From an uncultured Solirubrobacterales bacterium (GTDB lineage: Bacteria > Actinomycetota > Thermoleophilia > Solirubrobacterales > Solirubrobacteraceae), in contig CAWHDH010000017.1 in the NCBI GenBank assembly GCA_963828075.1, forward strand, positions 859,821 to 891,820: a stretch of 32,000 nt of DNA. Reading direction: 5' to 3'. How positions within the stretch are numbered: the stretch's first letter is position 1; every line of letters starts with the position of its first letter. Below the pieces are notes generated by a model. That model was not told the DNA's origin, did not search any database, and worked only from the letters and a program-made list of their open reading frames with translations. A program made the position numbers and the translations under genes. Positions 146 to 20,430 of the stretch are shown piece after piece.

Positions 146-751
146 GTGCGCCTCGTGCGTCGCCTCCGCTCGCCCGGGCTGATCGTCGCGATGATCGCGG
201 TCGTCCTCGCGGGCGTCGGGACCGCGACGGCTGCGCGCGACCTCATCACCGGGCGCGACGTGCGCAACAGCTCACTGACCGGCGCCGACATCCGCAACCG
301 CTCGCTCTCTCCGCGTGACTTCCGCGGGTCGGTGACCGGCCAGCCCGGCCCGGCGGGACGCACCGGCGAGCCCGGACCGATCGGCCCGGCCGGCCCGGCG
401 GGCCCTGCCGGCAAGGGGTTCGAGGGGCTCCGGCGGGTCAGCAAGGCCTACCGCCTGGACCCGCGGACCCCGAACCAGGCGCTCGCCGTCGACTGCCCGG
501 GCGGGAGTGCCCCGATCTCGAGCGGCGTCGACGTCTACGACGAGAGCACCAAGGAGGGTGTCGCGGGCGCATACCCGACGGGCTCCTTCCCCAACGTGAC
601 GGGCGGCGCAGCGTTCGTGACCAACACCACCGGACGGACGGACCTCATCGCGGTCGTCATCGCCATCTGCGCTCCCGGCGCGACGTTCGCGCCCGAGGAT
701 CCGGTGCCGCCGGCGGGCAAGCTGGACGCGCCCGCCGCGCACGCTCGCTAG
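146..751 (+). CDS. Small secreted or membrane-anchored protein with a short collagen-like G-X-Y stretch
   Basis: The N-terminus MRLVRRLRSPGLIVAMIAVVLAGVGTATA looks like a signal peptide or anchor. Nine consecutive G-X-Y triplets follow (GQPGPAGRTGEPGPIGPAGPAGPAGKG). GTG start. The overlapping antisense ORFs are Arg/Pro-rich junk. Confidence 0.6.
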   Translation: MRLVRRLRSPGLIVAMIAVVLAGVGTATAARDLITGRDVRNSSLTGADIRNRSLSPRDFRGSVTGQPGPAGRTGEPGPIGPAGPAGPAGKGFEGLRRVSKAYRLDPRTPNQALAVDCPGGSAPISSGVDVYDESTKEGVAGAYPTGSFPNVTGGAAFVTNTTGRTDLIAVVIAICAPGATFAPEDPVPPAGKLDAPAAHAR

Positions 752-3436: not shown

Positions 3437-3452
3437 GGTTTCGGGAGGTTAA

Positions 3453-3611
3453 GCCCTGATCCACCGATGATCCGTGGATGCCTCGGCGTCGCAGGCCAAG
3501 CCAGGGGTCATCGGCCGCGTATCTGCAGGGTGACCCTTTCGGTTCGCGGCCGATGGCGCATGGCGCAGTGCCTGCGGCGGCGAGGCGCCGCGGGTATCGG
3601 TGGATCAGGGC
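3453..3611. repeat. Highly structured 159-bp intergenic element with nested perfect inverted repeats (MITE/REP-like element or structured RNA)
   Basis: The outer 16-bp perfect inverted repeat is GCCCTGATCCACCGAT (3453-3468) paired with ATCGGTGGATCAGGGC (3596-3611). The inner 11-bp perfect inverted repeat is CATCGGCCGCG (3509-3519) paired with CGCGGCCGATG (3545-3555). There is also a local dyad ATCCAC-N9-GTGGAT (3459-3479). The first 30 nt recur at 16359-16388 with 27/30 identity. Confidence 0.55.
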
Positions 3612-3650
3612 TCAGGCCCGGTCCGTTCGGGTCGTCGGCCGAGGCCGCTG

Positions 3651-3656
3651 TATAAT
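3651..3656 (+). promoter_or_regulatory. Candidate -10 box (perfect TATAAT) for the tRNA-Gly gene
   Basis: A perfect TATAAT lies 11 nt upstream of tRNA position 1, in otherwise very GC-rich DNA, and is preceded by TG. I found no convincing -35 element. Confidence 0.3.
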
Positions 3657-3667
3657 CCGCCGCTCGC

Positions 3668-3741
3668 GCGGATGTAGCTCAGTTGGCTAGAGCGTCTGCT
3701 TGCCATGCAGAAGGTCGAGGGTTCGAGTCCCTTCATCCGCT
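3668..3741 (+). tRNA. tRNA-Gly (anticodon GCC)
   Basis: Hand-folded cloverleaf. Acceptor stem GCGGATG/CATCCGC; D stem GCTC/GAGC; anticodon stem TCTGC/GCAGA with loop TTGCCAT (anticodon GCC). Variable loop AGGTC; T arm GAGGG-TTCGAGT-CCCTT; discriminator T. 74 nt, with no encoded CCA. Confidence 0.93.
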
Positions 3742-3743
3742 TG
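3694..3743 (+). repeat. attL: 50-bp direct repeat running from the tRNA-Gly anticodon stem to 2 nt past the tRNA 3' end
   Basis: GTCTGCTTGCCATGCAGAAGGTCGAGGGTTCGAGTCCCTTCATCCGCTTG is identical base-for-base to 13861-13910. The flanking bases differ on both sides. Confidence 0.9.
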
Positions 3744-3751
3744 AAGCGAAA

Positions 3752-3775
3752 GCCCTGCTAGTCAGGGCTTTTTCT
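3752..3775 (+). terminator. Rho-independent terminator after tRNA-Gly (element-supplied copy)
   Basis: Stem GCCCTG / CAGGGC (6 bp) with loop CTAGT, followed by TTTTTCTTT. Confidence 0.7.
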
Positions 3776-3815
3776 TTGGGTTGAGCGGGTGGATTTGCTG
3801 GATTCTGGTGGTCGT

Positions 3816-3840
3816 GGGTACCACCCGTGGGTACCAAACG
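3816..3840 (+). promoter_or_regulatory. Two GGGTACCA motifs at the left island end (candidate integrase/Xis arm-type sites)
   Basis: GGGTACCAC lies at 3816-3824 and GGGTACCAAACG at 3829-3840. The same 12-mer GGGTACCAAACG recurs at 13775-13786 at the right end. Confidence 0.4.
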
Positions 3841-3942
3841 CCGGTCGCTCTGTCGCCCGTCAACGGGGCTTAGCGCTCCGGCGCAGGTGGATCGCCGGCC
3901 AGCCGTAACGCGCCCAGCGCGGAAGTCGTGGTCTCGACGCCA

Positions 3943-5184
3943 CTACTGCGTGCGCGCCGGCCCGCGCTGACCGGCGCTGAGTTCGCGCTCCATCTCATCG
4001 ATGAGTGCGAAGAGGCCTGTGGACTCCCAGATCCGGTTCCGCTTCCCGACCGTCACCAGTGCAAGAACGCCCTTTTCCTCTAGGTGGTTGAGCGCATTGC
4101 GAGCGGCGACCTCGCTGCGGCGGGTCAGTGCAGCGGCCTTCGCGGCATCGAGCATCGGGTACTCAGGAAGCGCATCGATGATGGCCGCAGCGGCGGAATC
4201 CTTGCGCGGATTGCCCGCCTGTTCGCGCCAGCGTTGCTGGAGAGCGGCGACCTGACCCGCCAGACGACCGGAGGCCAAAGCAGCATCCTCAGCGGCGCGC
4301 GCCAGCAAGACGATCCACTGCTGGGCGCCGTCCTCTTCAAACCGCCATGCCGTCAATGCTTCGACGTACCGCTCCCGCTCGCGCGCCAGTACGAGGCTGA
4401 TCGGCGGAATTACGTCGCGACAGACCTCCCGCCGAGCCAGGATCGCTCCGATCAGCGAACGTCCGACGCGGCCGTTGCCATCCACGAACGGGTGCACAGT
4501 CTCGAATTGCGCGTGCACCACGGCGGCTTGGACAAGGGGCGGGACGTCCCACCGGTTGGCGTAGTCGCACAAGTCCTCGAGCAGCCCCTCGACATGCCGA
4601 GCAGGAGGGGGAATGAAGTCTGCCCCAGCGGGCGTGTACGGATCATGTCCGATCCAGTTCTGGCCTGTGCGGATCTTGCCTCCATGCGCCGCCAGGAAGC
4701 GATCGGCAGCAGCAAGGCGCTTGTGAACATCACGAATCACGTCGGCGCTGAACGGATCACCGCTGGCGGCTGCCCACCGGTACACCCAGCGAACTGCGTC
4801 GATGTTGGCCACGGCGGCCTGGGCGCTGGGTTTGTGCTGGCCGCCGGCAAGCGCCTTGGCGAGCGCTCGGTGCGACGGCACATCGATGCCTTCAATCTGA
4901 CTCGAGGCGATCGCCTCAGAGCGCAGAAGTTGCTGGGCGATCGTGTTGACGCCGACAGTGTCCGTATGTCGCTGAGCATCAGCGACCGCTTCCTGGGCAT
5001 CGAGAATCGCCTGCACCGTGGTTTCGTCGAGCTTGAGCTGGAGCTCCGACAGCGGTGCCGGCACGTATGCCTGCACGCGTACCGACCGCCGGGCGCGCTT
5101 TGGAATCCCAGTTACGGCCTCCAGCGATGGCTGCCACACCTCTTCAAGCAGCTCGTAGCGAGTTCCTTTCGTCGGCGATTCCAT
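3943..5184 (-). CDS. Fic family protein (AMPylase-type, class II with an N-terminal autoinhibitory helix and a C-terminal winged-helix-like region)
   Basis: The canonical Fic motif HPFVDGNGRVGR is encoded at 4459-4494. The N-terminal SSQIEG matches the (S/T)xxxE(G/N) inhibitory motif. I prefer the ATG at 5184 over the TTG at 5190. A TATTAT -10-like box on the minus strand (5198-5193) lies 8 nt upstream, suggesting a leaderless mRNA. Confidence 0.9.
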   Translation of the reverse strand: MESPTKGTRYELLEEVWQPSLEAVTGIPKRARRSVRVQAYVPAPLSELQLKLDETTVQAILDAQEAVADAQRHTDTVGVNTIAQQLLRSEAIASSQIEGIDVPSHRALAKALAGGQHKPSAQAAVANIDAVRWVYRWAAASGDPFSADVIRDVHKRLAAADRFLAAHGGKIRTGQNWIGHDPYTPAGADFIPPPARHVEGLLEDLCDYANRWDVPPLVQAAVVHAQFETVHPFVDGNGRVGRSLIGAILARREVCRDVIPPISLVLARERERYVEALTAWRFEEDGAQQWIVLLARAAEDAALASGRLAGQVAALQQRWREQAGNPRKDSAAAAIIDALPEYPMLDAAKAAALTRRSEVAARNALNHLEEKGVLALVTVGKRNRIWESTGLFALIDEMERELSAGQRGPARTQ

Positions 5185-5321
5185 ACGCAAGGATAATACA
5201 GTATGCTTGCGCTTGACTAAGCTTGCTCATAGCCTGAGGTGCGAAACGATAGTCCTACAGCCTTTCGCAAGAACCCTCGAGCTTCGCGCCGAGTGTGCGT
5301 CAGCCATCGCCGGTAGTTCGC

Positions 5322-5654
5322 TCAGCGAGCCGGCTCACGAAACGCTTCGAGGCGCGCGACGATGGCTTCGAGGTCGGTCTGCTGCTGCCGCGCCCGATCG
5401 ATCGCCTCGATGAGTTCGTCAGGCTCGAGCTGAGCCTCGCGGAGCCGGCGCGAGCGGTAGCGCTCGACCTCCTTCGTCACCAGCTCCCCGAGGAGCTCGC
5501 TGAGCGGTCGGTAGCCGGCGAGGGCGCGGAAGTCCGCCCAGACCTCGTCTGACACCTGGACTCTGGCCATCCGGTCACGTTTCGCGGGCGGCGCGGGTTT
5601 CTCGGCGGCGGTCGATGGAGCCTGGGTGCGGCGCGGGCGCTTCTTTCGAGCCAT
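5322..5654 (-). CDS. Small basic protein with a possible ribbon-helix-helix DNA-binding core and a coiled-coil tail
   Basis: The segment ARVQVSDEVWADFRALAGYRPLSELLGELV fits a strand-helix-helix pattern and follows a Lys/Arg/Pro-rich N-terminal tail. An alternative start is the ATG at 5570 (MARVQVS). It lies directly upstream of the Fic gene on the same strand. Confidence 0.5.
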   Translation of the reverse strand: MARKKRPRRTQAPSTAAEKPAPPAKRDRMARVQVSDEVWADFRALAGYRPLSELLGELVTKEVERYRSRRLREAQLEPDELIEAIDRARQQQTDLEAIVARLEAFREPAR

Positions 5655-5684
5655 CGTGCGGATCGTATACGCGTAGACGGCGCA

Positions 5685-6062
5685 TCAGCGATGCAAGTGC
5701 GTCCCCGTTGTTGGGAGGTGTCGGGACGGGTTGGCCTTCCCCGGCTTGGCCTTCCTCGGCCTGCTGCTCATGGCGATCGTCTTGGTTGCTGGTTTCGCTC
5801 TCTGGTCGTTGGGTTCGTGCGTTGACTTGCTGTGCTTGCCGTTCGTTCTGACTTGGCTGCTTGTCTTGAGGACTTGGGCTTTGAGGGGTGTGGTGCTGTT
5901 GGGCTGGATCTCTCGCTCGCCAATCAGCCGATGCTTGAAGTCGGCCGGCGCCCAATCACAACACCCAACCGCCAGCGCGCCAGCTCGTGCGCCGTCATCG
6001 AATGCGAGCTCCCCGATCCCATCCGTTCCTGCCAGCCAGCAGGTAGCGACGACCGCATCCAC
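5685..6062 (-). CDS. Hypothetical protein: ~55-aa N-terminal domain plus a long basic, polar, low-complexity tail
   Basis: This frame has the highest third-position G+C of the three overlapping ORFs here, judged by hand inspection. It starts 19 nt after the Imm8-like stop and ends 30 nt before the next minus-strand start, which is operon-like spacing. There is no recognisable motif. Confidence 0.4.
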   Translation of the reverse strand: MDAVVATCWLAGTDGIGELAFDDGARAGALAVGCCDWAPADFKHRLIGEREIQPNSTTPLKAQVLKTSSQVRTNGKHSKSTHEPNDQRAKPATKTIAMSSRPRKAKPGKANPSRHLPTTGTHLHR

Positions 6063-6080
6063 GCGCGAAAGCGGAAGCCG

Positions 6081-6413
6081 CTAGAAGCGCGGCTGCCTAT
6101 GTGAGAACTCCCAGTAGGCGTAGCGTCCGAACTCCGCCGTGAACTCATCCCAGTCGGCGGCGGGCACGGTTCGGATCAGGCGCTGGACGGCGGTCTCGAC
6201 AGCGCCCCATGTGAACGCGTTGATCACCACCGTGTACTCGGGCACCACCGGCTCGTCGCCATGTTCCGCCAACCACTGGGGCGTCACGAACCGAAGGTCG
6301 AAGTCGTCCGCGCCCTCGGATCGGGCATCCCCGATTGCGACCGTCACCTCGACCTGGCAGTTGGTCGGGTCGTCGGGCAAGTCCTCAACGCCCGGTAGGT
6401 GGCGACTGAACAT
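6081..6413 (-). CDS. Imm8-like immunity protein (polymorphic-toxin immunity family)
   Basis: EDLPDDPTNCQVEVTVAIGDARSEGADDFDLRFVTPQWLAEH...DWDEFTAEFGRYAYWEFSH matches my recollection of the Imm8 pattern. That pattern is an acidic EGxESFD-type segment, then (V/C)TPxWL, then a C-terminal Y(G)xWEF. The ATG at 6413 gives a typical ~110-aa size. The ORF is also open to 6509 (start there unchecked), with a further in-frame Met (ATG, 6452). Confidence 0.62.
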   Translation of the reverse strand: MFSRHLPGVEDLPDDPTNCQVEVTVAIGDARSEGADDFDLRFVTPQWLAEHGDEPVVPEYTVVINAFTWGAVETAVQRLIRTVPAADWDEFTAEFGRYAYWEFSHRQPRF

Positions 6414-6728
6414 GCGCCTCACAACCGGGCTGAACGCTGGTTCGGGCGGCATCGGTACAGGATGCCGCTTAGACACCACAGGGGCATCGTGGCCAACCCC
6501 TTTGCGCAACAGCCACCATGCAAAGCAACAGACGAAGTCCTGCGCAACAGACCCCGTAGCTCCGCGTCGAGGTCATGCTCCTTTCGACGGTTGTCGACCG
6601 TCGCTTGTCGAGGGGAAGTCTGGAAGAGGATCGGCATGTGGGCGCCGCCGGACCGTCCCGCCGCGCCGCCGCCGACGGCGCGCTATGTCTCCGGCAACGC
6701 GTCCGGTTCATCGGGTTGGCTATAGCCG

Positions 6729-7370
6729 GTGCACACCGCGGCGATCTTCGCCCAGCAGCAGCCGGCCCCGACCGACTACACCCCGGCAATCATCGCGGCT
6801 TGTGTTGCGCTCGTTGGCATCCTCGTAGCCGCTTGGACCGCGCAGAAGCGTCTCCGAGTCCAGCTCGATCACGACCGCGAGCTGCACGACCTCGGCGAGC
6901 TGCGCACCGTCGTGGATGAGGCGGCCGCCCTGACCTATACGGCGCTCGACAAGCTCACGGACGCGATGGCAGCCGCGGAGGATTGGGCTATCGCTGGGCA
7001 GTCCGGCGTCAAGGAAGCCGTGGCCGCCGCCGCAGCGCGCCACGAAGCATTCGTGGTGATATGGCCGATGGAGAACATGGCAGCCCGCCTAGCGCTCCGG
7101 CTGACGGAACAACACCCCGTGTACACCGCGTTCCAAGAGTTCCACCACGGCTGTAAGCAGGCGGCGCGCCAGATGCCGCTCAAGAACCCTCCGGATCCGA
7201 TCCTTGAACCCGACCGTTGGGCGGCGCTCAGAGCGGAGCTCCGCCGCACGCGTGTGGCCTATGTTCGCCAAGCGCACGAAGTAGTCGCTTCGCGCCTTCC
7301 GCCACCCACGCCGACGGTACGCGCACATCCGAGGCTGCCCAAACTCCTCCGGCCATCCGGGCAGCGCTGA
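6729..7370 (+). CDS. Hypothetical single-pass membrane-anchored helical protein
   Basis: It has one N-terminal hydrophobic helix (PAIIAACVALVGILVAAWTA) followed by a helical soluble region. GTG start; no known motif. Confidence 0.45.
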   Translation: MHTAAIFAQQQPAPTDYTPAIIAACVALVGILVAAWTAQKRLRVQLDHDRELHDLGELRTVVDEAAALTYTALDKLTDAMAAAEDWAIAGQSGVKEAVAAAAARHEAFVVIWPMENMAARLALRLTEQHPVYTAFQEFHHGCKQAARQMPLKNPPDPILEPDRWAALRAELRRTRVAYVRQAHEVVASRLPPPTPTVRAHPRLPKLLRPSGQR

Positions 7371-7652
7371 GCGGAACTCTTGGCTCGGCCGGACCGCAGA
7401 TCCAGCGCCCTACGCCGCACCCTTCCGCGAGTGGGAGCCTTGCGCGTTGGACGAGCAGGAGCAGTCCACTCTCAAGCGCTCTGCCCATCTCGCGCCGCTA
7501 GCGCATCGCGCGACTTGCGCAAGTCGTCCGAAGCAGTAGCGCGAGGGCGTGCTGACGGACACCATGGATCCGGTGCGCGACCACCTGCGGGCGGTCGGCT
7601 CCCGGCCGACGAGCCTCGATCGAGCCCTGACCCCGCCGGTACGGTTTCGCCC

Positions 7653-8573
7653 GTGAATCTCATCCGCCGCATTGAGGCCTGTCACGGCGAGTTCCTGCTC
7701 TTCTCCCTCACCCCACCGCGTCTAGCGACGGAACCCGGGCAGGTGCGGGAGATCGCCGACGTGACCACCGCGCGTCTGCGCCCGCTCGGCCTGGACGGCC
7801 TGATCCTCTACGACATCGCCGACGAAGCGGAGCGCAACCAGGCCGAGCGCCCGTTCCCGTTCATGCCGACGCTGGATCCTGCTGACTACCTCGCCGATCA
7901 CCTCAACACCTGGCCAACGCCGGTGATCGTGTATCGCGCGGTGGGCAAGTACACGCCCGATGAGCTTCGGGCGTGGCTGACGGCGCAGGATCCAGCACGG
8001 GTTATGACGGTCCTCGTCGGAGCGGCCTCGAGCACCGCGGCCACTCGAACGTCGCTCGCCGACGCCCAAGCGCTGCGCCGGGACGCCAACGCGGCGCTCA
8101 AGCTAGGCGGCGTCGCGATCCCCGAGCGCCACAGCCGGCGCGAGGATGAGCATCTGCGCCTGCTGGCCAAGCAGGAGGCGGGTTGCCGGTTCTTCGTCAC
8201 GCAGGTCGTCTACGACCTGAACGCAGCGAAAAACTTCGTGTCCGACTACCACTATGAGTGCCGGTCGCGCGGCGTGTCACGGGTCCCGCTCGTCTTCACG
8301 TTCTCGGTCTGCGGGTCGATGAAGACGTTGGCCTTCCTGCGGTGGCTCGGCGTCGACGTGCCGCGGTGGATCGAGAACGACCTTCGACACGCCGCTGACC
8401 CACTCGAAGCCTCCTACCAACAGGCGCTCACGACAGCCACCGAGTTGATCGCGTACTGCCGCACGCTCGACGTTCCCTTCGGCATCAACGTCGAGAGCGT
8501 CTCGATCCGTCGCGTGGAGATCGAAGCCTCGGTGCGCCTCGCCGAAGCGCTCCGAGCGCAGCTCAGGAGCTAG
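7653..8573 (+). CDS. Methylenetetrahydrofolate reductase (MetF/MTHFR)-like TIM-barrel protein
   Basis: Its layout resembles MetF. FLLFSLTPPR corresponds to FSFEFFPP(K/R)T. GGVAIPERH...LLAKQEAGCRFFVTQVVYD corresponds to AAYPExHP...K.dAGAdf.ITQ.fFD. The C-terminal part has VDVPRWI. The GTG start at 7653 is inferred from where the homology begins. The ORF is open upstream to 7380, but that part is Arg/Ser/Pro-rich. Confidence 0.6.
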   Translation: MNLIRRIEACHGEFLLFSLTPPRLATEPGQVREIADVTTARLRPLGLDGLILYDIADEAERNQAERPFPFMPTLDPADYLADHLNTWPTPVIVYRAVGKYTPDELRAWLTAQDPARVMTVLVGAASSTAATRTSLADAQALRRDANAALKLGGVAIPERHSRREDEHLRLLAKQEAGCRFFVTQVVYDLNAAKNFVSDYHYECRSRGVSRVPLVFTFSVCGSMKTLAFLRWLGVDVPRWIENDLRHAADPLEASYQQALTTATELIAYCRTLDVPFGINVESVSIRRVEIEASVRLAEALRAQLRS

Positions 8574-8754
8574 TCGCACGCGACTGGGGCGGCGACGTCA
8601 GCGGCGAGTCGGTGCCGTACATGCCCGCCAGCCCTAATCCCAACTAAATCGTGTACCGAAGCAAGTCCAGCACGGTCCCGTGGCAGCGGCGACCGCTCGC
8701 ACTCTCAGCACCAGCAAGCAGCAGGCGGTGACTGCTGGTTTCCATGCGCGAGCG

Positions 8755-9462
8755 TCACCGCGGCCAGGACAAGCCAGCGCTCGCGGGGAGCATCGGCGCC
8801 CGGCGGGCGTAGACGGTGTCGATGATCTCGGCGTTGTCGATGCCCTGTAGGTAAACGGACGTCACGCCGAGGTTCGCGTGGCCGAGCTGGCGTTGGATGA
8901 CGTTCAGCGGCACGCCTTCGCGAGCCATCTCGACCGCATGCGCGTGACGGAGTTGATGCGGCGCGAACCGCCGACGCACTCCCGCGTCGAACGCGAGGCG
9001 CCGGAGGGTCGCTCGAGCCGCGGCGGCTGACCATGGCCGGCCACGGGTCGACCCCGTGAGCACGCAGATCAGGGAGCCGACTGGCAGCTCGACGCGCCGC
9101 TCGAGCCACGGCGAGAGCTGCTCCCAGCCCCACGGGTCCATGCCGACCTCTCGACGTTTGTCACCTTTGCCGTGGCGGACGAGGACTGCGCCGCGCCGTC
9201 GGTCAAGGTCGCTCTCGGCGAGATCGAGCGCTTCGCTGATCCGAAGACCCGCTCGCCAGAGCAAGACCACAAGGGCACGCGCTCGCAGCCCATGCGGGCC
9301 ATCGCCGGCCGAGCGCATGACGGCGACGATTTCCTCGACGGTCGGCGGATCGGCCGGATAGCGCAGACCCTTGTTGCGCGGCGCGCGGCCACAGTGATAG
9401 CCGGGCAAGGTCGCCGGCGAGCGACGCCGACCAGCGGCGTCGAGAAGCACGAGAGTGGTCAT
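8755..9462 (-). CDS. Short tyrosine recombinase/integrase (catalytic domain with only a minimal N-terminal region)
   Basis: The catalytic signature is present: AGLRISEAL (Arg), HQLRHAH (His-x-x-Arg), LGHANLGVT (His) and SVYLQG (Tyr). The ATG at 9462 (MTTLVLLD...) gives 235 aa. The upstream 95 codons of the ORF look non-coding. Confidence 0.85.
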   Translation of the reverse strand: MTTLVLLDAAGRRRSPATLPGYHCGRAPRNKGLRYPADPPTVEEIVAVMRSAGDGPHGLRARALVVLLWRAGLRISEALDLAESDLDRRRGAVLVRHGKGDKRREVGMDPWGWEQLSPWLERRVELPVGSLICVLTGSTRGRPWSAAAARATLRRLAFDAGVRRRFAPHQLRHAHAVEMAREGVPLNVIQRQLGHANLGVTSVYLQGIDNAEIIDTVYARRAPMLPASAGLSWPR

Positions 9463-9728
9463 CGACGCAGCCTCGACGGATCCCAGCTCAGCCACCCCGC
9501 TGCCAGGCAAGCACTCGCTCCCACTCCGCATGGAAAGGGTGGTCGCGTGCGCGCGCAGCCCACTAGTGCCGCCATGCGAAGCGGCTGCGCCGCGGGGCCA
9601 CTCGGTTGTCATGCTCATCGGCGTGACCGGCCCGATCTCGTTTCTAAACCGATCCCTCTGGACCGAAGTCGAGCGGTATCCCGCGGTCGAACCAGACGCG
9701 CTCTCCCCATTACGAGGAGGCAGTGGGT

Positions 9729-10052
9729 ATGCGCCTCCCCGACGCACTGCGGACCCTGCTGCTAGACGAAGGAGCGATCAGGGGCTGGGTCGGCTCGTAC
9801 TACCTCTGCCTCGTGCACCCAGGCTTGGCGCTCGAGATTCGCAACGAGCAGCTGAGCTACGGATGGAGCCCAGATTTTGTTCTGTTCGCCGACGACGGCA
9901 GCCGCAAGCAATTCTTCATCGCGAGCAGCGACGGATCCATCTGGCTGTCTGACATTCTCACTTACGCCCAAGACGGCGAACCGTTCGCCGACGGGCTGGA
10001 AACGTTCGCGAAGCAAATCGAGCAGGAAGGCCAGGACCCGCTTCCACTATGA
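9729..10052 (+). CDS. SMI1/KNR4 (SUKH superfamily)-like immunity protein
   Basis: MRLPDALRTLLLDEG...PDFVLFADDGSRKQFFIASSDGSIWLSD...FADGLETFAKQIEQE fits the SUKH pattern (LPxxyxxFLxxxNG ... ipFAxDGgGnxxcfd ... sFeeFl). A strong RBS (GAGGAGG, 9714-9720) lies 8 nt before the ATG at 9729. Confidence 0.68.
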   Translation: MRLPDALRTLLLDEGAIRGWVGSYYLCLVHPGLALEIRNEQLSYGWSPDFVLFADDGSRKQFFIASSDGSIWLSDILTYAQDGEPFADGLETFAKQIEQEGQDPLPL

Positions 10053-10265
10053 CGCCAGGAGCGGTAGCGCGATCTCGCTGGCGCGCCGCTGTCGCTGTGG
10101 ACGAGAAGCGCAATTCGCGCAAAGCAGCCCTCGCCGCGGATCAGCCGGAGCCGGCCAACACCAGATAGAAAAGCGGAGCAAAGGGTCATGACCCAGCCCC
10201 TAGTGAGCGTCTCTTGCAATTCCATCGCCCGGGAACTCTTTGACCACCGGTGAGGTTGGCTCTGA

Positions 10266-11120
10266 TCAGCTTCTAAGCCTGCGGATCAAGTTCGCGAGCA
10301 TGATGGTCGCGTCGGCCGCAAGCCCGGCGTCGCGGCGGCTTGGCGTCGTGCGGTGCTTAATCGCCTGGGCTGCCTCGATCGTCGCCCGCGCGAGCTTCCG
10401 TAGCTCAGCGTTCTCCGGTCCGGGCAGTTCGACCTCGACGATGCGGTCCAAGCGGTCCTTGGTCCTAGCGACGGGCGGCTCGGATTCGTTCGCTCGCGAG
10501 TGGCGTGCGGCGTCGTAGGCAGCGGCGCTAATCGCTTCGATGACGATGACGCAATCGTTACCGACGTTCCTGTAGTCCTGGGGAGTAGTTGCGCTTTGGA
10601 AGTGGCGACGTAATTCGGCAACCTCTGCGTCGACCTTGGTCCACCCGGTGCGGCCGCGAGGACTAACAGCTTCGGCCAGGGACGACGTGAGCGATTGCGA
10701 TTCCAGGTCGGCCAGCTGATCATGCAGGGCATCGAAGATGCCGCCCAGGATGTCGCGGCGCGCTTGCCAACCGCCCGCGCCGCTGGCGCCGGTACGTATC
10801 CAGTAGCTGCGAAACGTCGTGAAATCCCGAAACCGAACGTCGGGGACGTCCGCGCCGAGACGCGTGCACACCGCTCGTAATGCCAGAAGCGCGTCGCGCA
10901 TGTCGGCGTCGTCCATAATCTCGCCGCCACCCGTGCCGAACGCCTCAAGCTCGTCGTGGATCAAGCGCGCGAGTCCCACCGCAGTTTCCACGTCGGGCGC
11001 GTTGCTCAGCGGCCCTTGTCGGAGCCGTCGCGCGACGTCTCGACGGAATCGACGAACTGTTGAGTCGAACCCGAACCCAGAGGGCTCAACCGTCTCCTCA
11101 ATGAAGTTCTCCGGCCGCAT
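10266..11120 (-). CDS. Hypothetical protein (284 aa, mostly helical), downstream member of a two-gene ORFan module
   Basis: This is a long clean ORF with ATG at 11120 and lower G+C than the core genome. It lies 88 nt downstream of the HEPN-like ORF on the same strand. No motif was recognised. Confidence 0.6.
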   Translation of the reverse strand: MRPENFIEETVEPSGFGFDSTVRRFRRDVARRLRQGPLSNAPDVETAVGLARLIHDELEAFGTGGGEIMDDADMRDALLALRAVCTRLGADVPDVRFRDFTTFRSYWIRTGASGAGGWQARRDILGGIFDALHDQLADLESQSLTSSLAEAVSPRGRTGWTKVDAEVAELRRHFQSATTPQDYRNVGNDCVIVIEAISAAAYDAARHSRANESEPPVARTKDRLDRIVEVELPGPENAELRKLARATIEAAQAIKHRTTPSRRDAGLAADATIMLANLIRRLRS

Positions 11121-11208
11121 GAGCTGGAACGTAGTTCGCGTCCCGACGTACGCAGACCTCTGCGCTGTCCCGGCTTAGGGCAACAAACGACACGATGGCG
11201 TATCGATT

Positions 11209-11769
11209 TCAGCCTTGCTTATCGGTCAGCCGCTCGATCTTTGCCTCAAGGTCTGGGTCCCAGTCCCATTCGTCGGCTTCGGGGAAGCGCTCTTTGGCGT
11301 CGTCGAGGATGCGCTCGAGCACCTCGATCTTCTCGCGGAGCATCTGCCTGAGGTCACGGTCCGGCGGCTCGGCAAGCCGTGGGTTACTCCCGCTTCGGGC
11401 CGGCCTGATCCGCAGTTCGGGCCGGGTGATTCCTACCTGGCTGTGGATCATGAGCGCACCCTCGTGCAGGACGTAGTTGCGGGCTTGCAGCAGGTAGGCG
11501 AACTCGGGGTCCGCGGCGAGTTGCCTCCGCACATCCGCGTACCACTCATCGAAGCCAGTGTCGTGCTTGAACTCCTTCTGGAGGAAGAGCGTGAAGCTGC
11601 GTATCGCCGAGATGGCGCTGTGGGTGTAGACCGCGTTGTCCGGCCACTGGGTCGGCGAATCCGAGAGGTGGGCCAGCATGAGCTTCGCCTGCTCGAGCAT
11701 CACCCAGGTGGGAACCCACCGTAAGAGGTCGTCGTAGTCGAGGTTGTCGAAGCCGAGGTCGCCGGGCAT
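11209..11769 (-). CDS. Hypothetical helical protein with a HEPN-like RNxxxH motif (candidate RNase/Abi-type effector)
   Basis: The protein contains ...EFAYLLQARNYVLHEGAL..., and RNYVLH is encoded at 11464-11481 (cgc aac tac gtc ctg cac, minus strand). Three predicted helices precede the motif, as in HEPN domains. I prefer the ATG at 11769; a TTG at 11802 is also possible. Confidence 0.55.
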   Translation of the reverse strand: MPGDLGFDNLDYDDLLRWVPTWVMLEQAKLMLAHLSDSPTQWPDNAVYTHSAISAIRSFTLFLQKEFKHDTGFDEWYADVRRQLAADPEFAYLLQARNYVLHEGALMIHSQVGITRPELRIRPARSGSNPRLAEPPDRDLRQMLREKIEVLERILDDAKERFPEADEWDWDPDLEAKIERLTDKQG

Positions 11770-11985
11770 GGAAGCCGTGGATCGCTGGCAACTCTCCCAC
11801 AAGTCGTCCGTAGTGCCTCATCCGTTGAAATGCTCTCGGGGCCTGCAGGCTCTCGCTTTCGCGTGGATGCGCTAGCTGGCGCTCAGGGTTCGGGACGACC
11901 GCAGCCAAACGGCTACTGGTGTCCGTCTACAGAGCAGACCGTGCAACTCGCGCTTCCTACTCAGCCGCTCACTCGCGAGGACGTC

Positions 11986-12135
11986 ATGACAGCCGGCGAG
12001 GTCGCCGAGCTCGTGAAGATCCCTCGGTCGACCGTCTACGATCTCGCGCGTCGCGGGCTGATTCCCGCGCACAGGATCGGGCGGGCGTGGCGGTTCGTCC
12101 GGCAGGAGATCGAGCAGTGGCTGCTCGCGAGCTGA
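11986..12135 (+). CDS. xis: Excisionase-family / MerR-type helix-turn-helix DNA-binding protein (Xis)
   Basis: MTAGEVAELVKIPRSTVYDLARRGLIPAHRIGRAWRFVRQEIEQWLLAS is a classic 50-aa excisionase-type HTH. GAGGA lies 5 nt upstream of the ATG at 11986. Confidence 0.8.
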   Translation: MTAGEVAELVKIPRSTVYDLARRGLIPAHRIGRAWRFVRQEIEQWLLAS

Positions 12136-12136
12136 G

Positions 12137-12412
12137 CTACGCGGGCTGGCGTTCGCGTCCGCTGGTCGCCCACCTATGGAGGGTCTCCGGGGCGATGTCG
12201 GCTCCGTTGGGCCAGACGATCGTGCCGAGCTCCTCGTCGAGGGTCGCGCGACGGAAGTAGGAGGGATCACGGAGCGGTTCGAAGACGCCGGACCACTCGG
12301 CCTGCGAGAACGCCACCTCTCCCTCGGAGCCATCGTCGAACGACACGCGGAGCCGATGGTCGGCGATGACCTCGAAAGCGGTGGCGTGGACGAGCTGGGC
12401 CACTGCGCTCAT
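12137..12412 (-). CDS. DUF2442 domain protein
   Basis: MSAVAQLVHATAFEVIADHRLRVSFDDGSEGEVAFS...GVFEPLRDPSYFRRATLDEELGTIVWPNGADIAPETL matches the DUF2442 consensus (YxLxVxFxDGxxGxxDL ... FxPLxDPxxFxxVxxDxELGTIxWPNGADLxPExLY). Its ATG at 12412 is 1 nt after the integrase stop. Confidence 0.75.
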   Translation of the reverse strand: MSAVAQLVHATAFEVIADHRLRVSFDDGSEGEVAFSQAEWSGVFEPLRDPSYFRRATLDEELGTIVWPNGADIAPETLHRWATSGRERQPA

Positions 12413-12413
12413 G

Positions 12414-13715
12414 CTAATCCGCGGCAACCGCGAGCCCCTGCGCCGTACCCTTGGAGCCGGTGGCAAAGGCGGCGTCGAGGCGCGCGTACTCCTCAGGGCG
12501 GTACTTGGCCGAGACGTAGCGGTCGGTCGTCGTGAGCTTCGCGTGGCCGAGCATGTCGCGGACGAAGACCGGGTCGGCGGTGCGGGCGACGATGCTGCCG
12601 GCGGCGTGGCGGAGGGCGTGGAGCCTGAGTGGGCGGAGGCCGGCGGCGGCGCAGGCGGCCTTGTAGCGGCGGCGGACGGCAGAGCCGTCGAGGCGCCTCC
12701 CCCACACGTTCGCGAAGACGTAGTCGTCGGGTGAGAGGAACTCGCCTCGCCCACGGAGGCGCTGCAGCACGTCGACGGCCGGCTGAGCGAGCGGGGCGAT
12801 GCGGAAGCGGCGGCCCTTCGGGATTCCTTCGACGTCGGCTGAGAGGCCGCGGCGGACGAGCAGCGTCCGGAGCTCGAGGTCGACGTCGTCCCAGCGGAGC
12901 GTCAGCGCCTCGCCGAGCCGGAGGCCGGTGAAGAACAACAGCCGGAACAGCTCGGCGTCCTGCTCATCGATGCGGATGTCGAGGGCGTCGCGGACGCGCC
13001 GCCGATGCTCCCCGGCGGCCGTCACCAGGGCGAGCGCCTCGATCTCATGGGGCTCGTAGTAGTCGAGCGCGGCCGGCGGGTCCTCCGGGCGCTTGTCGGT
13101 GCCGAGGACCGGGTTGGCCGGGAGGTTGTGCGCGTCCTCGCGACAGGCGTACTGGAACATCGCGGCGAGGACCTGGCGGTGCTTGTTGACGTTGCGCGGC
13201 GTCAGGCCCTCGGCGTCGAGCGTCCGGAGGAACCTCGAGATGTCGCGGGTGGTCACCGACTCGATCGGCCGGTCGCCGAGGGCGGCGAGGATGCGGCCGG
13301 CGCTCGACCGCCTGCCGCGCTTGAACGGCGTCCCCGGCTCGCGCAGCAGCGCCTCGTAGTCGCGCAGCGTCGACGGCTTGCTCTGCTTGACGTCTCGCTG
13401 CCACTCCAGCCAGTCGCGCGCGAGGTCGCGGACGAGGACCGGCCGGTTCGCCGCTTCACGCGCCAGCCGCTCGCGCTCAACCCGCTCCTCCCCCACCGCC
13501 GCGATCGTCGCAACCGCCGCCGCGTGGGCGCCCCGCTCGTCCAACCAGCCATCACGGACGCGGCCCGCGCGCCGCGCCCATCCCCCATCAGCCGCCGTCA
13601 ACCAGGCCGGACCGAGGCGTCGCTTGAGCTGCTGACCACCGGCTCGCCACTTGACCTCGTAGTACGGAACCCCGCCCTTCCCGACCCGCACGACGAGGTT
13701 GTACGAGGCCGCCAT
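12414..13715 (-). CDS. int: Tyrosine integrase of the island
   Basis: 433 aa. The N-terminal arm-binding/SAM-like region is followed by a catalytic domain with TGLRLGEALTLRWDDVDL, HALRHAAGS, LGHAKLTTTDRYV. It lies 145 nt from attR. Confidence 0.9.
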   Translation of the reverse strand: MAASYNLVVRVGKGGVPYYEVKWRAGGQQLKRRLGPAWLTAADGGWARRAGRVRDGWLDERGAHAAAVATIAAVGEERVERERLAREAANRPVLVRDLARDWLEWQRDVKQSKPSTLRDYEALLREPGTPFKRGRRSSAGRILAALGDRPIESVTTRDISRFLRTLDAEGLTPRNVNKHRQVLAAMFQYACREDAHNLPANPVLGTDKRPEDPPAALDYYEPHEIEALALVTAAGEHRRRVRDALDIRIDEQDAELFRLLFFTGLRLGEALTLRWDDVDLELRTLLVRRGLSADVEGIPKGRRFRIAPLAQPAVDVLQRLRGRGEFLSPDDYVFANVWGRRLDGSAVRRRYKAACAAAGLRPLRLHALRHAAGSIVARTADPVFVRDMLGHAKLTTTDRYVSAKYRPEEYARLDAAFATGSKGTAQGLAVAAD

Positions 13716-13786
13716 TTCGGCGAGGGTACCACCGATTTCGGCGAGGGTACCAACTCCTCCGCGGGTACCACTTTGGGTACCAAACG
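13714..13786 (+). promoter_or_regulatory. Cluster of four GGGTACCA motifs between int and attR, including a 21-bp tandem duplication (candidate arm-type sites / int promoter region)
   Basis: ATTTCGGCGAGGGTACCA occurs twice in tandem (13714-13734 and 13735-13755), and the first copy overlaps the int start codon. Further GGGTACCA copies lie at 13763-13770 and 13775-13782. Confidence 0.45.
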
Positions 13787-13860
13787 ACCCCGATTCAACG
13801 CTCCAAAGCCATAAAACCGCGATCTAGCCTTCCCGTTTCAGAGCCAAATCGCCCCTCATT

Positions 13861-13910
13861 GTCTGCTTGCCATGCAGAAGGTCGAGGGTTCGAGTCCCTT
13901 CATCCGCTTG
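13861..13910 (+). repeat. attR: 50-bp direct repeat (orphan 3' half of tRNA-Gly)
   Basis: Identical to 3694-3743. It lacks the tRNA acceptor 5' strand and D arm, so it is not a functional tRNA. Confidence 0.9.
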
Positions 13911-13918
13911 TGAGGAAA

Positions 13919-13945
13919 GCCCCGGTAATCGGGGCCTTTTCTTTG
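13919..13945 (+). terminator. Rho-independent terminator (probably the original chromosomal tRNA-Gly terminator, now orphaned)
   Basis: Stem GCCCCG / CGGGGC with loop GTAAT, followed by CTTTTCTTT. It is homologous to, but diverged from, the hairpin at 3752-3775. Confidence 0.6.
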
Positions 13946-14049
13946 GTCTGAGCGGCCGTTTTCTGGGGTCTGGTGGTCGCCCGTCCCACCTGCGGGTACC
14001 GTGCCCCTCGGGCCGTACGGCCCCGAGAGCCCATCGAGGAGGACCGCTC

Positions 14050-16323: not shown

Positions 16324-16358
16324 CGCCCGACCCAGGCGCGGACGTACGGCCGGCCCTA

Positions 16359-16388
16359 GCCTGGATCCACCGATCATCCGTGGATGCC
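16359..16388 (+). repeat. Second copy of the 30-nt dyad-containing motif seen at 3453-3482
   Basis: GCCTGGATCCACCGATCATCCGTGGATGCC aligns with GCCCTGATCCACCGATGATCCGTGGATGCC at 27/30 identity. It sits inside a larger hairpin (CCTGGATC at 16360-16367 with GATCCAGG at 16401-16408), 36 nt after the tail-fibre-like gene stop. Confidence 0.6.
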
Positions 16389-16471
16389 GCGGGAATCGGA
16401 GATCCAGGCCTAGATAAAATCATCCATTCGGTTGATGGCAGGCGGCGCCGGGGTCCGTACCTTCCCGTGGT

Positions 16472-20338: not shown

Positions 20339-20430
20339 GTGTCGGCGGAAGCGCCACGCGCTGACGGTGGCGGGCTGGGTGTCGGCGGAAGTGCCACGCG
20401 CTGACGGTGGCGGGCTGGGCGTCCGCGGCG
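20339..20430. repeat. Intergenic tandem repeat, 40-bp unit, about 2.3 copies
   Basis: GTGTCGGCGGAAGCGCCACGCGCTGACGGTGGCGGGCTGG (20339-20378) repeats at 20379-20418 with one mismatch. A partial third copy follows (20419-20430, 8/12 identity). The unit length is not a multiple of 3. Confidence 0.85.

What the first reader, a model, noticed from the sequence alone, without database searches (positions are those of the whole stretch)
3694..13910. 10.2-kb integrative island in tRNA-Gly(GCC), bounded by perfect 50-bp direct repeats
A 50-nt segment is repeated exactly, 10.1 kb apart. It runs from the first base of the tRNA anticodon stem to 2 nt past the tRNA 3' end. The left copy is part of a complete, foldable tRNA-Gly, while the right copy is an orphan 3' half. 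Between them lie a 433-aa tyrosine integrase (145 nt from attR), a 50-aa excisionase, and cargo with visibly lower G+C than the flanks. This is the classic footprint of a tyrosine-integrase element with crossover in the anticodon loop. No replication, relaxase or capsid genes are present. It therefore looks like a small non-autonomous (mobilisable or satellite-like) island carrying conflict genes.
Basis: partly seen in the sequence, partly recalled or inferred. Interest (0 to 1): 0.75.

Follow-up and report, generated by a model that had tools for sequence, protein, structure and literature searches.

The report
Small integrase island in tRNA-Gly gene
A 10.2-kb piece of foreign DNA carrying its own integrase, excisionase and a load of defence and toxin-immunity genes sits in a glycine tRNA gene of a soil actinobacterium; it is a well-preserved but ordinary kind of mobile island, from a little-studied bacterial lineage.

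Summary
An exact 50-nt direct repeat (3694-3743 and 13861-13910) covers the 3' two-thirds of an intact tRNA-Gly(GCC) and an orphan copy 10,167 bp away. Between them lie a 433-aa tyrosine integrase, a 50-aa HTH_17 excisionase and lower-G+C cargo.

New here:
- Six GGGTACCA repeats, four upstream of int and two in the left arm, give a lambda-like attP layout.
- Integrase relatives (39-84% identity) in about 95 metagenome or MAG loci nearly all sit 170-320 nt from an orphan tRNA 3' half.
- Six other islands with both ends (3.8-11.3 kb) share the layout but only int, xis and sometimes DUF2442. Their identifiable cargo differs: TA pairs, TIR proteins, an MmeI-type RM enzyme, a PIN-TPR protein.
- Four distinct genus-level relatives (five loci) have the same neighbour gene and tRNA-Gly with no island.
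- About 92 nt right of attR resemble the island's own left arm, probably a remnant of an earlier insertion.

No replication, transfer or capsid gene was detected, and four ORFs stay unknown. Excision was not observed.

Verdict: a genuine, probably still competent, non-autonomous integrative island. It is a new member of a known kind.

The parts
3668..3741 (+). Intact tRNA-Gly(GCC). The 5' part is chromosomal and the 3' part from 3694 is supplied by the island.
   Evidence: ARAGORN; Rfam RF00005, 72 bits. Window 3651-3742 is 100% identical to the tRNA region of the island-free relative L008.
3694..3743 (+). attL core: left copy of the exact 50-nt direct repeat. The anticodon loop TTGCCAT is at 3700-3706.
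3748..3782 (+). Island-borne intrinsic-terminator-like hairpin plus T-run directly after the rebuilt tRNA.
   Evidence: Related islands carry an equivalent hairpin.
3816..3836 (+). Left-arm (P'-type) doublet of putative arm-type integrase sites, GGGTACCA x2.
   Evidence: 9 GGGTACC in the window versus 1.9 expected; 6 at the island ends and a 7th just outside attR. A doublet lies at the same relative position in L007, L062, L095 and L096.
3943..5190 (-). Fic-domain protein, SoFic-like, with the HPFVDGNGR motif and an N-terminal SxxxEG inhibitory motif. Candidate anti-phage or toxin cargo.
   Evidence: Pfam Fic 1.2e-18. PADLOC SoFic 1.8e-69 over 353 of 361 profile positions. The NCBIfam SoFic equivalog cutoff is not reached, 67.8 versus 550 bits.
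5322..5654 (-). 110-aa ORF upstream of Fic, function unknown.
   Evidence: Coding-like GC3. No hit in Pfam, PADLOC, NCBIfam or PHROGs.
6081..6509 (-). Imm8-family immunity-like protein with no toxin partner seen.
   Evidence: Pfam Imm8 1.1e-17, 64.6 bits versus cutoff 27.
6729..7370 (+). 213-aa ORF, unknown.
7380..8573 (+). MTHFR-like protein; the start codon is uncertain.
   Evidence: Pfam MTHFR 5.5e-7, 29.7 bits. NCBIfam scores are far below equivalog cutoffs.
8755..9462 (-). Second, short tyrosine recombinase (about 235 aa from Met at 9462; the ORF extends to 9747). Role unknown.
   Evidence: Pfam Phage_integrase 9.7e-30. A 72% homologue lies in L066 near an IS-disrupted integrase of this family. 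No flanking repeats.
9723..10052 (+). SUKH-1/SMI1-like small protein (weak match).
   Evidence: Pfam SMI1_KNR4 1.1e-3, 20.1 bits, below the cutoff of 25.4.
10266..11120 (-). 284-aa protein of a widespread uncharacterised family.
   Evidence: 816 representatives at E<=1e-3. No Pfam or PDB relative, even with a 49-sequence profile. AF2 single-sequence pLDDT 53.6, unusable.
11209..11802 (-). 197-aa ORF divergent from xis, unknown.
   Evidence: AF2 pLDDT 51.6. Not homologous to the ORF at the same position in L006.
11983..12135 (+). Excisionase-type HTH_17 protein (xis), 50 aa.
   Evidence: Pfam HTH_17 8.5e-17. 52-86% identical copies in 11 related islands, with weaker hits in two further loci.
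12137..12412 (-). DUF2442 protein (DhiA-antitoxin-like) without its DUF4160 partner.
   Evidence: Pfam DUF2442 7.5e-14. The DUF4160+DUF2442 pair sits in the same slot in L006 and L096, and in L046 and L077 a DUF2442 homologue follows a gap of about 250 nt. The pair is a TA system in Dickeya (PMC8198452).
12414..13715 (-). Tyrosine integrase, 433 aa, reading inward from the right end.
   Evidence: Pfam Phage_integrase 9.1e-27 plus SAM-like domain. R266, H366, R369, H391 and Y400 are invariant in 20 homologues. 910 homologues, named Thermoleophilia or Solirubrobacteraceae where named.
13724..13782 (+). Right-arm (P-type) set of four GGGTACCA sites: a spaced pair plus a tight doublet ending in AAAC.
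13861..13910 (+). attR core: orphan tRNA-Gly 3' fragment, right copy of the repeat.
   Evidence: Not called as a tRNA.
13911..14002 (+). Flank outside attR that resembles the island's own left arm: a hairpin and a decayed doublet (CCCGTCCCA, GGGTACCG). Probable remnant of an earlier related insertion.
   Evidence: Alignment score 75 versus 17 +/- 2.5 for shuffles. Native flanks of relatives score 32 or less. Comparable remnants occur in L022 and L095.

Best explanation
This is a 10.2-kb integrative genomic island. The mobile DNA is 3744-13860 plus one copy of the 50-bp core. It inserted by tyrosine-integrase site-specific recombination into the tRNA-Gly(GCC) gene of a Thermoleophilia/Solirubrobacterales-type actinobacterium.

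Inferred mechanism:
1. The circular form carries an attP of roughly 280 bp. It consists of four GGGTACCA arm sites next to the int promoter region, about 79 nt of spacer, a 50-bp copy of the tRNA from the anticodon stem to 2 nt past the 3' end, a terminator hairpin, and a GGGTACCA doublet.
2. Int binds the arm sites through its N-terminal part. It binds the anticodon-stem inverted repeat through its core-binding and catalytic domains.
3. Strands are exchanged in or just 3' of the anticodon loop.
4. Insertion displaces the native tRNA 3' half to attR. The island's identical copy and its own terminator rebuild a working tRNA at attL.
5. The divergently placed HTH_17 protein would direct excision.

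The island has an int, (TA slot), xis backbone shared with a large family of small islands. The rest is exchangeable cargo, here mainly conflict genes: SoFic-like Fic, Imm8, SUKH-like and an orphan DUF2442. It encodes no recognisable replication, conjugation or packaging function, so spread between cells must depend on other agents.

Shown: the repeats, genes, motifs, family-wide layout and island-free relatives. Inferred: the crossover position, arm-site binding, current activity and mode of transfer.
For: - An exact 50-nt repeat lies in the same orientation as an intact tRNA, and the orphan copy lacks a 5' half.
- An intact integrase with its catalytic residues, plus xis, lies just inside attR.
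- GGGTACC occurs 9 times against 1.9 expected. Six copies lie at the island ends in one orientation, with a 7th just outside attR.
- The same 4+2 site layout is found in L006, L007, L046, L050-L058, L062, L077, L095 and L096. Other subclades use other motifs (CGTACAACA, TGGGCATCA, GGCGTAGCG) at the same positions.
- In 49 of 65 related loci an orphan tRNA 3' half lies 170-320 nt upstream of int by a T-arm pattern. Four more were found by eye or by direct repeat. Targets are Gly-GCC, Ala, Asp, Val, Tyr, Arg and Gly-CCC.
- Six further islands with both ends were recovered: 3756, 4504, 4815, 7903, 8582 and 11346 bp.
- Only int, xis and DUF2442 of this island recur in them. Their cargo differs.
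- Relatives L008/L009, L010, L093 and L094 (neighbour Pat-like protein 74-76% identical) have tRNA-Gly beside the Pat-like gene, in two of them with a small DoxX gene between. All have a single copy of the tRNA 3' half and no integrase. Each has different downstream genes.
- The rebuilt tRNA is 100% identical to that of L008.
- Island G+C is 0.667 versus 0.73-0.75 outside.
- No replication, relaxase or capsid family was found in Pfam, NCBIfam or PHROGs.
Against: - No empty site with the same right flank was found. The closest available relatives are only about 75% identical in the neighbour protein, and their DNA downstream of the tRNA is unrelated to 13911 onward.
- No circular or excised junction was observed, so current mobility is unproven.
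- The integrase has host-like GC3 (0.92), so part of the element is well adapted to this host or is old.
- Four ORFs (110, 213, 284 and 197 aa) have no assignable function and could hide a mobility function.
- A crude comparison of Int N-terminal identity with arm-motif class showed no clear co-variation.
Confidence: 0.9

Rival explanations
1. The island was acquired by integration but is now a fixed, immobile resident. Its repeats and genes are kept only by recency or chance.
For: No excised form was seen. The integrase has host-like GC3 of 0.92. The TA slot holds only the antitoxin-like DUF2442, suggesting some gene loss. The site shows debris of earlier elements.
Against: The two 50-nt cores are identical. 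All six arm sites are perfect GGGTACCA. Both int and xis are full length, with the catalytic residues conserved.
Confidence: 0.3
2. It is a phage satellite (PICI-like) or a decayed prophage that uses helper capsids.
For: It has a small size, an integrase and xis at one end, a tRNA site and a defence-type gene. This resembles satellites in outline.
Against: PHROGs hits are limited to the two recombinases and Fic. There is no terminase, capsid, primase or repressor. No relative of the integrase was found in 2.9 million viral contigs or in 50,697 phage genomes at E<=1e-5. None of the related islands examined carries packaging genes.
Confidence: 0.05
3. It is an actinomycete integrative conjugative or mobilisable element. 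Either it is an AICE-like element with unrecognised transfer genes, or it has a cis site used by a host TraB/FtsK-type system.
For: The host is an actinobacterium. AICEs also integrate in tRNA genes with int and xis at one end (my knowledge of pSAM2 and SLP1). Four ORFs are unassigned. A cis-acting transfer site would be invisible to gene searches.
Against: No FtsK/SpoIIIE, Rep, relaxase, Nudix or Tra family was hit. No such gene is conserved among the related islands, the smallest of which is 3.8 kb. The integrase has no match in 72,556 plasmids.
Confidence: 0.12
4. The repeat is a leftover of a tandem tRNA-Gly gene duplication and the DNA between is ordinary chromosome.
For: tRNA genes can be duplicated, and both copies are followed by similar hairpins.
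Against: The right copy starts exactly at the anticodon stem, and the sequence upstream of it is unrelated to a tRNA 5' half. The interval holds int, xis and arm sites. Relatives have one tRNA-Gly copy here.
Confidence: 0.01
5. The unit is larger or composite. The 10.2-kb island is the newest member of a tandem series, and DNA to the right (13911 to at least 16.4 kb, including the repeat-rich Peptidase_S74 protein) is cargo of an older, decayed island.
For: 92 nt right of attR align to the island's left arm, including a decayed site doublet. Native flanks in relatives do not align this way. L022 has a foreign doublet GGCGCTACCA x2 at the equivalent place, and L095 has a second decayed tRNA fragment. 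The S74 protein has no close orthologue. DNA right of attR is not syntenic with any relative.
Against: No third tRNA fragment and no int or xis pseudogene were found up to 32000. The S74 gene has host-like GC3 of 0.91. Native terminators after this tRNA look partly similar, as in L094.
Confidence: 0.55

Closest known systems
tRNA-gene genomic islands with anticodon-centred att sites (Islander class 'A'; Williams 2002; Hudson et al. 2015, PMC4383910)
   Same: An intact tDNA plus a displaced 3' fragment in the same orientation. A tyrosine integrase lies within the interval. The identity block runs from the anticodon region to the tRNA 3' end. Islander lists 2083 of 3919 islands of this type and 125 tandem arrays.
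   Different: The host lineage (Thermoleophilia/Solirubrobacterales) and this integrase clade have no description in the searched literature. The clade has no match in phage or plasmid collections.
Lambda-type heterobivalent integrases with arm-type sites and an Xis
   Same: Repeated short motifs lie on both arms, about 80-140 nt from the core. The attP inferred spans about 280 bp, and a small HTH excisionase is present.
   Different: All six sites point the same way in a fixed pair+doublet / doublet layout. Binding was not tested. No Pfam arm-binding domain was recognised in the N-terminus.
Tycheposons of Prochlorococcus (Hackl et al., bioRxiv 10.1101/2020.12.28.424599)
   Same: Small cargo-carrying elements with an inward-facing tyrosine recombinase at one end. 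They integrate in tRNA genes. Integrase subclades are tied to different tRNAs. Degenerate elements accumulate next to the tRNA.
   Different: Tycheposons share a set of replication hallmark genes (primase, helicase), with the replication module itself described as optional, and a lineage-specific integrase. No replication module is seen here or in the related islands. Relatedness of the integrases was not tested.
Actinomycete integrative and conjugative elements (pSAM2, SLP1 type)
   Same: An actinobacterial host, tRNA integration, and int-xis at one end beside att (my knowledge).
   Different: No Rep, TraB/FtsK-like or spread genes were detected. Family members are as small as 3.8 kb.
SoFic single-gene anti-phage defence (PADLOC SoFic; PMC12249575)
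   Same: The cargo Fic protein matches the SoFic model end to end at 1.8e-69. It has the HPFxDGNGR active-site motif.
   Different: It falls far below the NCBIfam SoFic equivalog cutoff. The reported downstream AS1 antitoxin has no evident counterpart. Defence activity is untested.

Membership tests
tRNA-integrated genomic island with tyrosine integrase (Islander criteria) | Intact tRNA gene plus a cognate displaced fragment in the same orientation | tested here: met
   tRNA at 3668-3741. An exact 50-nt 3' fragment at 13861-13910 on the same strand.
tRNA-integrated genomic island with tyrosine integrase (Islander criteria) | Integrase gene (PF00589, not Xer or integron class) inside the interval | tested here: met
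   PF00589 at 9.1e-27. XerC, XerD and integron NCBIfam scores are 30-90 bits against cutoffs of 265-335.
tRNA-integrated genomic island with tyrosine integrase (Islander criteria) | The island restores the disrupted tRNA gene | tested here: met
   The tRNA folds and scores 72 bits. It is 100% identical to that of the island-free relative L008.
tRNA-integrated genomic island with tyrosine integrase (Islander criteria) | Absent from the same site in related genomes (empty site) | tested here: inconclusive
   Four distinct genus-level relatives (five loci) have Pat-like gene and tRNA-Gly without an island. None shares the right flank, so the exact attB was not recovered.
Lambda-type integrase with arm-type sites | Repeated arm motifs on both sides of the core, conserved across related elements | tested here: met
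   4+2 GGGTACCA sites. The same layout occurs in at least 12 related loci, and other motifs occupy the same positions in other subclades.
Lambda-type integrase with arm-type sites | The Int N-terminal domain binds the arm sites | not testable with these tools
   The crude N-terminal identity versus motif-class comparison was uninformative.
Phage satellite / PICI | Packaging or capsid-redirection gene, replication module, phage-responsive regulator | tested here: not met
   No such hit in Pfam, PHROGs or NCBIfam. No viral-contig or phage-genome relatives of int.
Prophage | Capsid, terminase, tail and lysis genes | tested here: not met
AICE / ICE / IME | Conjugative DNA translocase or relaxase, and a replication initiator | tested here: not met
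   No FtsK/SpoIIIE, relaxase or Rep family hit. Four ORFs are unassigned, so a novel protein cannot be excluded.
Tycheposon | Tycheposon-lineage tyrosine recombinase and shared hallmark gene set | not tested
Only the architecture was compared.
SoFic defence system | Full-length match to the SoFic model with an intact Fic motif | tested here: met
   PADLOC 1.8e-69, profile positions 6-358 of 361. HPFVDGNGR is present.
SoFic defence system | Equivalog-level identity to characterised SoFic, and anti-phage activity | tested here: not met
   NCBIfam NF046030 scores 67.8 bits against a cutoff of 550. Activity is not testable.
DhiTA (DUF4160/DUF2442) toxin-antitoxin pair | Adjacent DUF4160 toxin and DUF2442 antitoxin genes | tested here: not met
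   Only DUF2442 is present. The int stop codon (12414-12416) lies one base from the DUF2442 start at 12412, leaving no room for a toxin gene. The pair is complete in L006 and L096.

The most novel reading that the evidence does not exclude
The window island may be one member of a large, undescribed family of minimal (3.8-11 kb) int, TA, xis 'cargo shuttles' in Thermoleophilia and other soil bacteria. These elements carry defence or toxin-immunity genes but no replication or transfer genes. They keep one fixed attP scaffold while swapping both the arm-site motif and the tRNA core. They also pile up serially at the same tRNA. This would be a soil-actinobacterial counterpart of the marine tycheposons, with an unknown route of cell-to-cell transfer.
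Probability: 0.45. Interest if true: 0.5.

Novelty: new member of a known kind. Interest (0 to 1): 0.3.

Why it matters
The island itself is textbook biology. It is still useful in three ways.

- It gives precisely mapped att sites and a complete inferred attP (core plus six arm sites) for an integrase clade with no characterised member. The host belongs to a poorly studied, hard-to-manipulate soil lineage, so the clade is a possible source of site-specific integration tools.
- Comparison across relatives shows a clean natural series. The same attP scaffold is re-targeted to different tRNAs and uses different arm motifs. This bears on how integrase specificity evolves.
- The elements move defence and TA genes (SoFic-like, TIR, MmeI-type RM, PIN-TPR) between genomes without any visible transfer machinery. 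How they travel is an open question.

Tried and rejected
- Exact-protein look-ups of the window integrase, and of its 100% identical database entry, found no contig. The source genome could not be retrieved.
- The single genome-contig scan with the neighbour Pat-like protein returned only distant relatives (42% identity or less), none useful as an empty site.
- The last homologue search, on the S74 repeat protein next to attR, found no orthologue. It found only repeat-driven hits in many phyla, so no 'tRNA-Gly then S74' empty site emerged.
- tblastn of 18 right-flank ORFs and one left-flank ORF against all fetched loci found no synteny.
- A search for a third tRNA fragment or int/xis pseudogenes right of attR found none.
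- Single-sequence AlphaFold models of the 284-aa and 197-aa ORFs had pLDDT 53.6 and 51.6. They were too poor to use, so no fold search was run.
- A 49-sequence profile of the 284-aa family hit nothing in PDB or Pfam.
- Co-variation between the Int N-terminus and arm-motif class was inconclusive.
- No repeats flank the second recombinase, so a nested element could not be shown.
- The small ORF upstream of Fic was considered as a SoFic antitoxin. It was not adopted, because the published AS1 lies downstream and there is no homology evidence.

Full report
**1. The observation**

ARAGORN finds a single tRNA in the window, tRNA-Gly(GCC) at 3668-3741 on the + strand. Rfam confirms it at 72 bits and calls nothing else between 3300 and 17000.

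The repeat finder reports 3694-3743 and 13861-13910 as an exact 50-nt direct repeat, 10,167 bp apart. A direct string comparison confirms identity, with different bases on both sides. A Hamming scan allowing 20 mismatches in 50 finds no third copy on either strand.

The repeat begins at the G between the D-arm and the anticodon stem. It ends 2 nt past the tRNA. DNA left of the right copy shows no similarity to a tRNA 5' half, so the right copy is an orphan 3' fragment.

G+C is 0.667 for 3744-13860 and 0.658 for the cargo part. It is 0.753 to the left and 0.730 beyond 16.4 kb.

**2. Gene content**

Frame-specific G+C picks out twelve likely genes. Profile searches gave the following, from left to right:

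- A 415-aa Fic protein at 3943-5190 (-). Pfam Fic 1.2e-18. PADLOC SoFic 1.8e-69 over nearly the whole model. It has the HPFVDGNGR motif, but lies far below the NCBIfam SoFic equivalog cutoff.
- A 110-aa unknown ORF.
- An Imm8 immunity-like protein (1.1e-17).
- A 213-aa unknown ORF.
- An MTHFR-like protein.
- A second, short tyrosine recombinase of about 235 aa from Met at 9462 (Pfam 9.7e-30).
- A weak SUKH-1 match, below the Pfam cutoff.
- A 284-aa and a 197-aa unknown ORF.
- A 50-aa HTH_17 excisionase-type protein at 11983-12135 (+) (8.5e-17).
- A DUF2442 protein at 12137-12412 (-).
- The 433-aa integrase at 12414-13715 (-). It has Phage_integrase and SAM-like domains. R266, H366, R369, H391 and Y400 are invariant across 20 homologues.

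No replication initiator, relaxase, FtsK-like translocase, terminase or capsid family was hit in Pfam, NCBIfam or PHROGs.

The 284-aa protein belongs to a sizeable uncharacterised family, with 816 representatives at E<=1e-3. That family has no Pfam or PDB relative, even by profile. Single-sequence structure models of the 284- and 197-aa proteins were too poor to use.

**3. att-site anatomy**

The heptamer GGGTACC occurs nine times in the window against 1.9 expected. As GGGTACCA it occurs twice at 3816-3836, in the left arm 72-92 nt past the core. It occurs four times at 13724-13782, between the int start and the right core. All copies have the same orientation.

The right-arm sites form a spaced pair followed by a tight doublet, GGGTACCACTTTGGGTACCAAAC. 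The left arm carries a similar doublet.

Directly after the rebuilt tRNA, the island supplies a terminator-like hairpin with a T-run (3748-3782).

Joined through one core copy, these parts would form an attP of roughly 280 bp. That layout matches lambda-type integrases with arm-type and core-type sites. This is an inference from established knowledge; binding was not tested.

**4. Related elements**

The integrase has 910 database homologues. Those with names are from Thermoleophilia or Solirubrobacteraceae MAGs. I fetched context for four of them. A metagenome scan with a 20-sequence alignment added 80 loci.

In 49 of 65 loci with enough upstream DNA, a T-arm pattern finds an orphan tRNA 3' half 170-320 nt upstream of int. 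Four more were found by eye or as direct repeats. Judged from the anticodon loops, most targets are Gly-GCC. Others are Ala (two anticodons), Asp, Val, Tyr, Arg-CCG and Gly-CCC.

Six loci contain both ends of an island:

| Locus | Target tRNA | Island size | Int identity to window | Repeat |
|---|---|---|---|---|
| L007 | Gly-GCC | 4815 bp | 73% | 45 nt |
| L095 | Gly-GCC | 8582 bp | 82% | both core copies found |
| L096 | Gly-GCC | 4504 bp | 78% | both core copies found |
| L022 | Gly-GCC | 3756 bp | 58% | 47 nt |
| L062 | Arg-CCG | 7903 bp | 50% | 52 nt |
| L067 | Gly-CCC | 11346 bp | 46% | 48 nt |

All six have the order tRNA, left arm, cargo, int, arm sites, orphan half. A xis homologue lies next to int in four of them. 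In L062 and L067 it lies elsewhere in the island.

The four-site-plus-doublet layout is conserved. The motif differs by subclade: GGGTACCA, CGTACAACA, TGGGCATCA or GGCGTAGCG. GGGTACCA elements target three different tRNAs. Core and arm specificities therefore vary independently.

Across orphan fragments, identity to the tRNA consistently begins at or just before the anticodon loop. This places the crossover in or 3' of that loop. That is an inference.

**5. Modularity and cargo**

tblastn of all window-island proteins against every fetched locus finds only int, xis and DUF2442 elsewhere. The single exception is a 72% homologue of the second recombinase in L066.

The slot between int and xis holds different small gene pairs in different islands:

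- DUF4160 plus DUF2442 in L006 and L096 (in L046 and L077 a DUF2442 homologue follows a gap of about 250 nt). This is the DhiTA toxin-antitoxin pair of Dickeya (PMC8198452).
- A Gp49/HTH pair (HigBA-like) in L007 and L095.
- DUF2442 alone in the window.

Cargo elsewhere also varies:

- Three TIR proteins with an AAA protein in L095.
- An MmeI-type restriction-modification enzyme in L067.
- A 1289-aa TPR-PIN protein with a PIN/MazE pair in L062.
- A PIN-like protein in L022.

None of these islands carries recognisable replication, transfer or packaging genes. No relative of the integrase was found in IMG/VR contigs, in 50,697 phage genomes or in 72,556 plasmids. There is no support for the satellite option.

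**6. Empty sites**

The gene left of the tRNA encodes an 894-aa GNAT plus NDP-forming acyl-CoA synthetase (Pat-like) protein. Its closest database homologues are only 71-76% identical, so no same-species genome is available.

In L008/L009, L010, L093 and L094 the same gene lies next to tRNA-Gly(GCC), in two of them with a small DoxX gene between. Each has a single copy of the tRNA 3' half and no integrase. Each has different genes downstream.

L011/L012 have, after the tRNA, a family-type hairpin and a 149-aa integrase fragment. This looks like a decayed element.

The window tRNA region is 100% identical to that of L008. This shows absence of the island at genus level and a hypervariable tRNA-proximal region. 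It does not recover the exact attB, because nothing right of 13911 is syntenic with any relative.

**7. The flank right of attR**

Past the 50-nt core, 13911-14002 aligns to the island's own left arm, 3744-3835, at about 78% identity. The score is 75, against 17 +/- 2.5 (maximum 29) for shuffles. The alignment includes the hairpin and a decayed version of the site doublet (CCCGTCCCA and GGGTACCG).

Flanks of island-free relatives and of other islands score 32 or less against either sequence. Some native flanks, such as L094, do share a similar terminator hairpin.

Two other loci show comparable features. L022 has a foreign doublet, GGCGCTACCA x2, at the equivalent position outside its attR. 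L095 has a second, degenerate tRNA-Gly fragment just outside attR.

I read these as traces of earlier insertions at the same tRNA. This matches tandem arrays in Islander and the accretion model for tycheposons.

It is uncertain whether the Peptidase_S74 repeat protein at 14050-16323 belonged to such an older element. In favour, it has no close orthologue. Against, its GC3 is host-like, and no third tRNA fragment or int/xis pseudogene exists in the window.

**8. Comparison with known systems, and verdict**

The element meets the Islander criteria for a tRNA-gene island with an anticodon-centred att site. That class is the most common in the database.

- It works like a lambda-type Int/Xis system.
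- It resembles tycheposons in architecture and in serial use of tRNA sites, but lacks their replication module. Integrase relatedness was not tested.
- It fails the defining features of prophages, satellites and AICEs/ICEs as far as profile searches can tell.

No paper in the searchable library describes such islands in Thermoleophilia or Solirubrobacter.

The finding is real and its interpretation is largely right. It is a new member of a known kind, of modest interest. Its main value is the well-resolved attP architecture and the family-wide view of swapped tRNA targets, arm motifs and defence cargo.

Noticed in passing
window 3452-3612: A ~160-nt near-perfect long hairpin lies between the Pat-like gene start and the tRNA. 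It has 17-nt perfect terminal inverted repeats. RNA fold is -138.7 kcal/mol, z = -11.2. It is not conserved in relatives. It may be a MITE-like or REP-like element.
   Followed up: partly
window 16358-16392: A second copy (89%) of the first 35 nt of that hairpin element lies just after the S74 gene stop. Here it forms only a short hairpin.
   Followed up: partly
window 14050-16323: A secreted 757-aa protein built from about 26 tandem 51-nt (17-aa) repeats, ending in a Peptidase_S74 intramolecular-chaperone domain. It has no close orthologue; the best hits are repeat-driven and come from many phyla.
   Followed up: partly
window 8755-9462 and L066 7602-8306: A short (~235 aa) tyrosine recombinase lacking an N-terminal SAM-like domain sits inside the island. 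A 72% homologue lies in L066 beside a RelE/Phd-like pair and an IS256-type transposase that truncates a family integrase. No flanking repeats were found. Its role is unexplained.
   Followed up: partly
L006 9807-21314: The integrase (72% identical) and an orphan tRNA-Gly half are present. No full tRNA lies within 11.5 kb, and a NiFe-hydrogenase gene cluster follows the int-xis module. This is either a much larger island or a lost left end.
   Followed up: no
L022 9649-9671; L095 ~2640-2700: Just outside attR, L022 has a doublet of a different arm-type motif (GGCGCTACCA x2). L095 has a second degenerate tRNA-Gly 3' fragment. These look like traces of earlier insertions at the same tRNA.
   Followed up: partly
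L096 1182-1700: A second DUF2442 gene and a small xis-like ORF lie outside the island's attR, in inverted orientation relative to the island module.
   Followed up: no
window 20339-20418: A 40-nt unit is repeated in tandem at 98% identity, upstream of an fn3-domain protein gene.
   Followed up: no
window 146-751: A 201-aa ORF with a weak collagen-triple-helix-like repeat abuts the end of the Pat-like gene.
   Followed up: no
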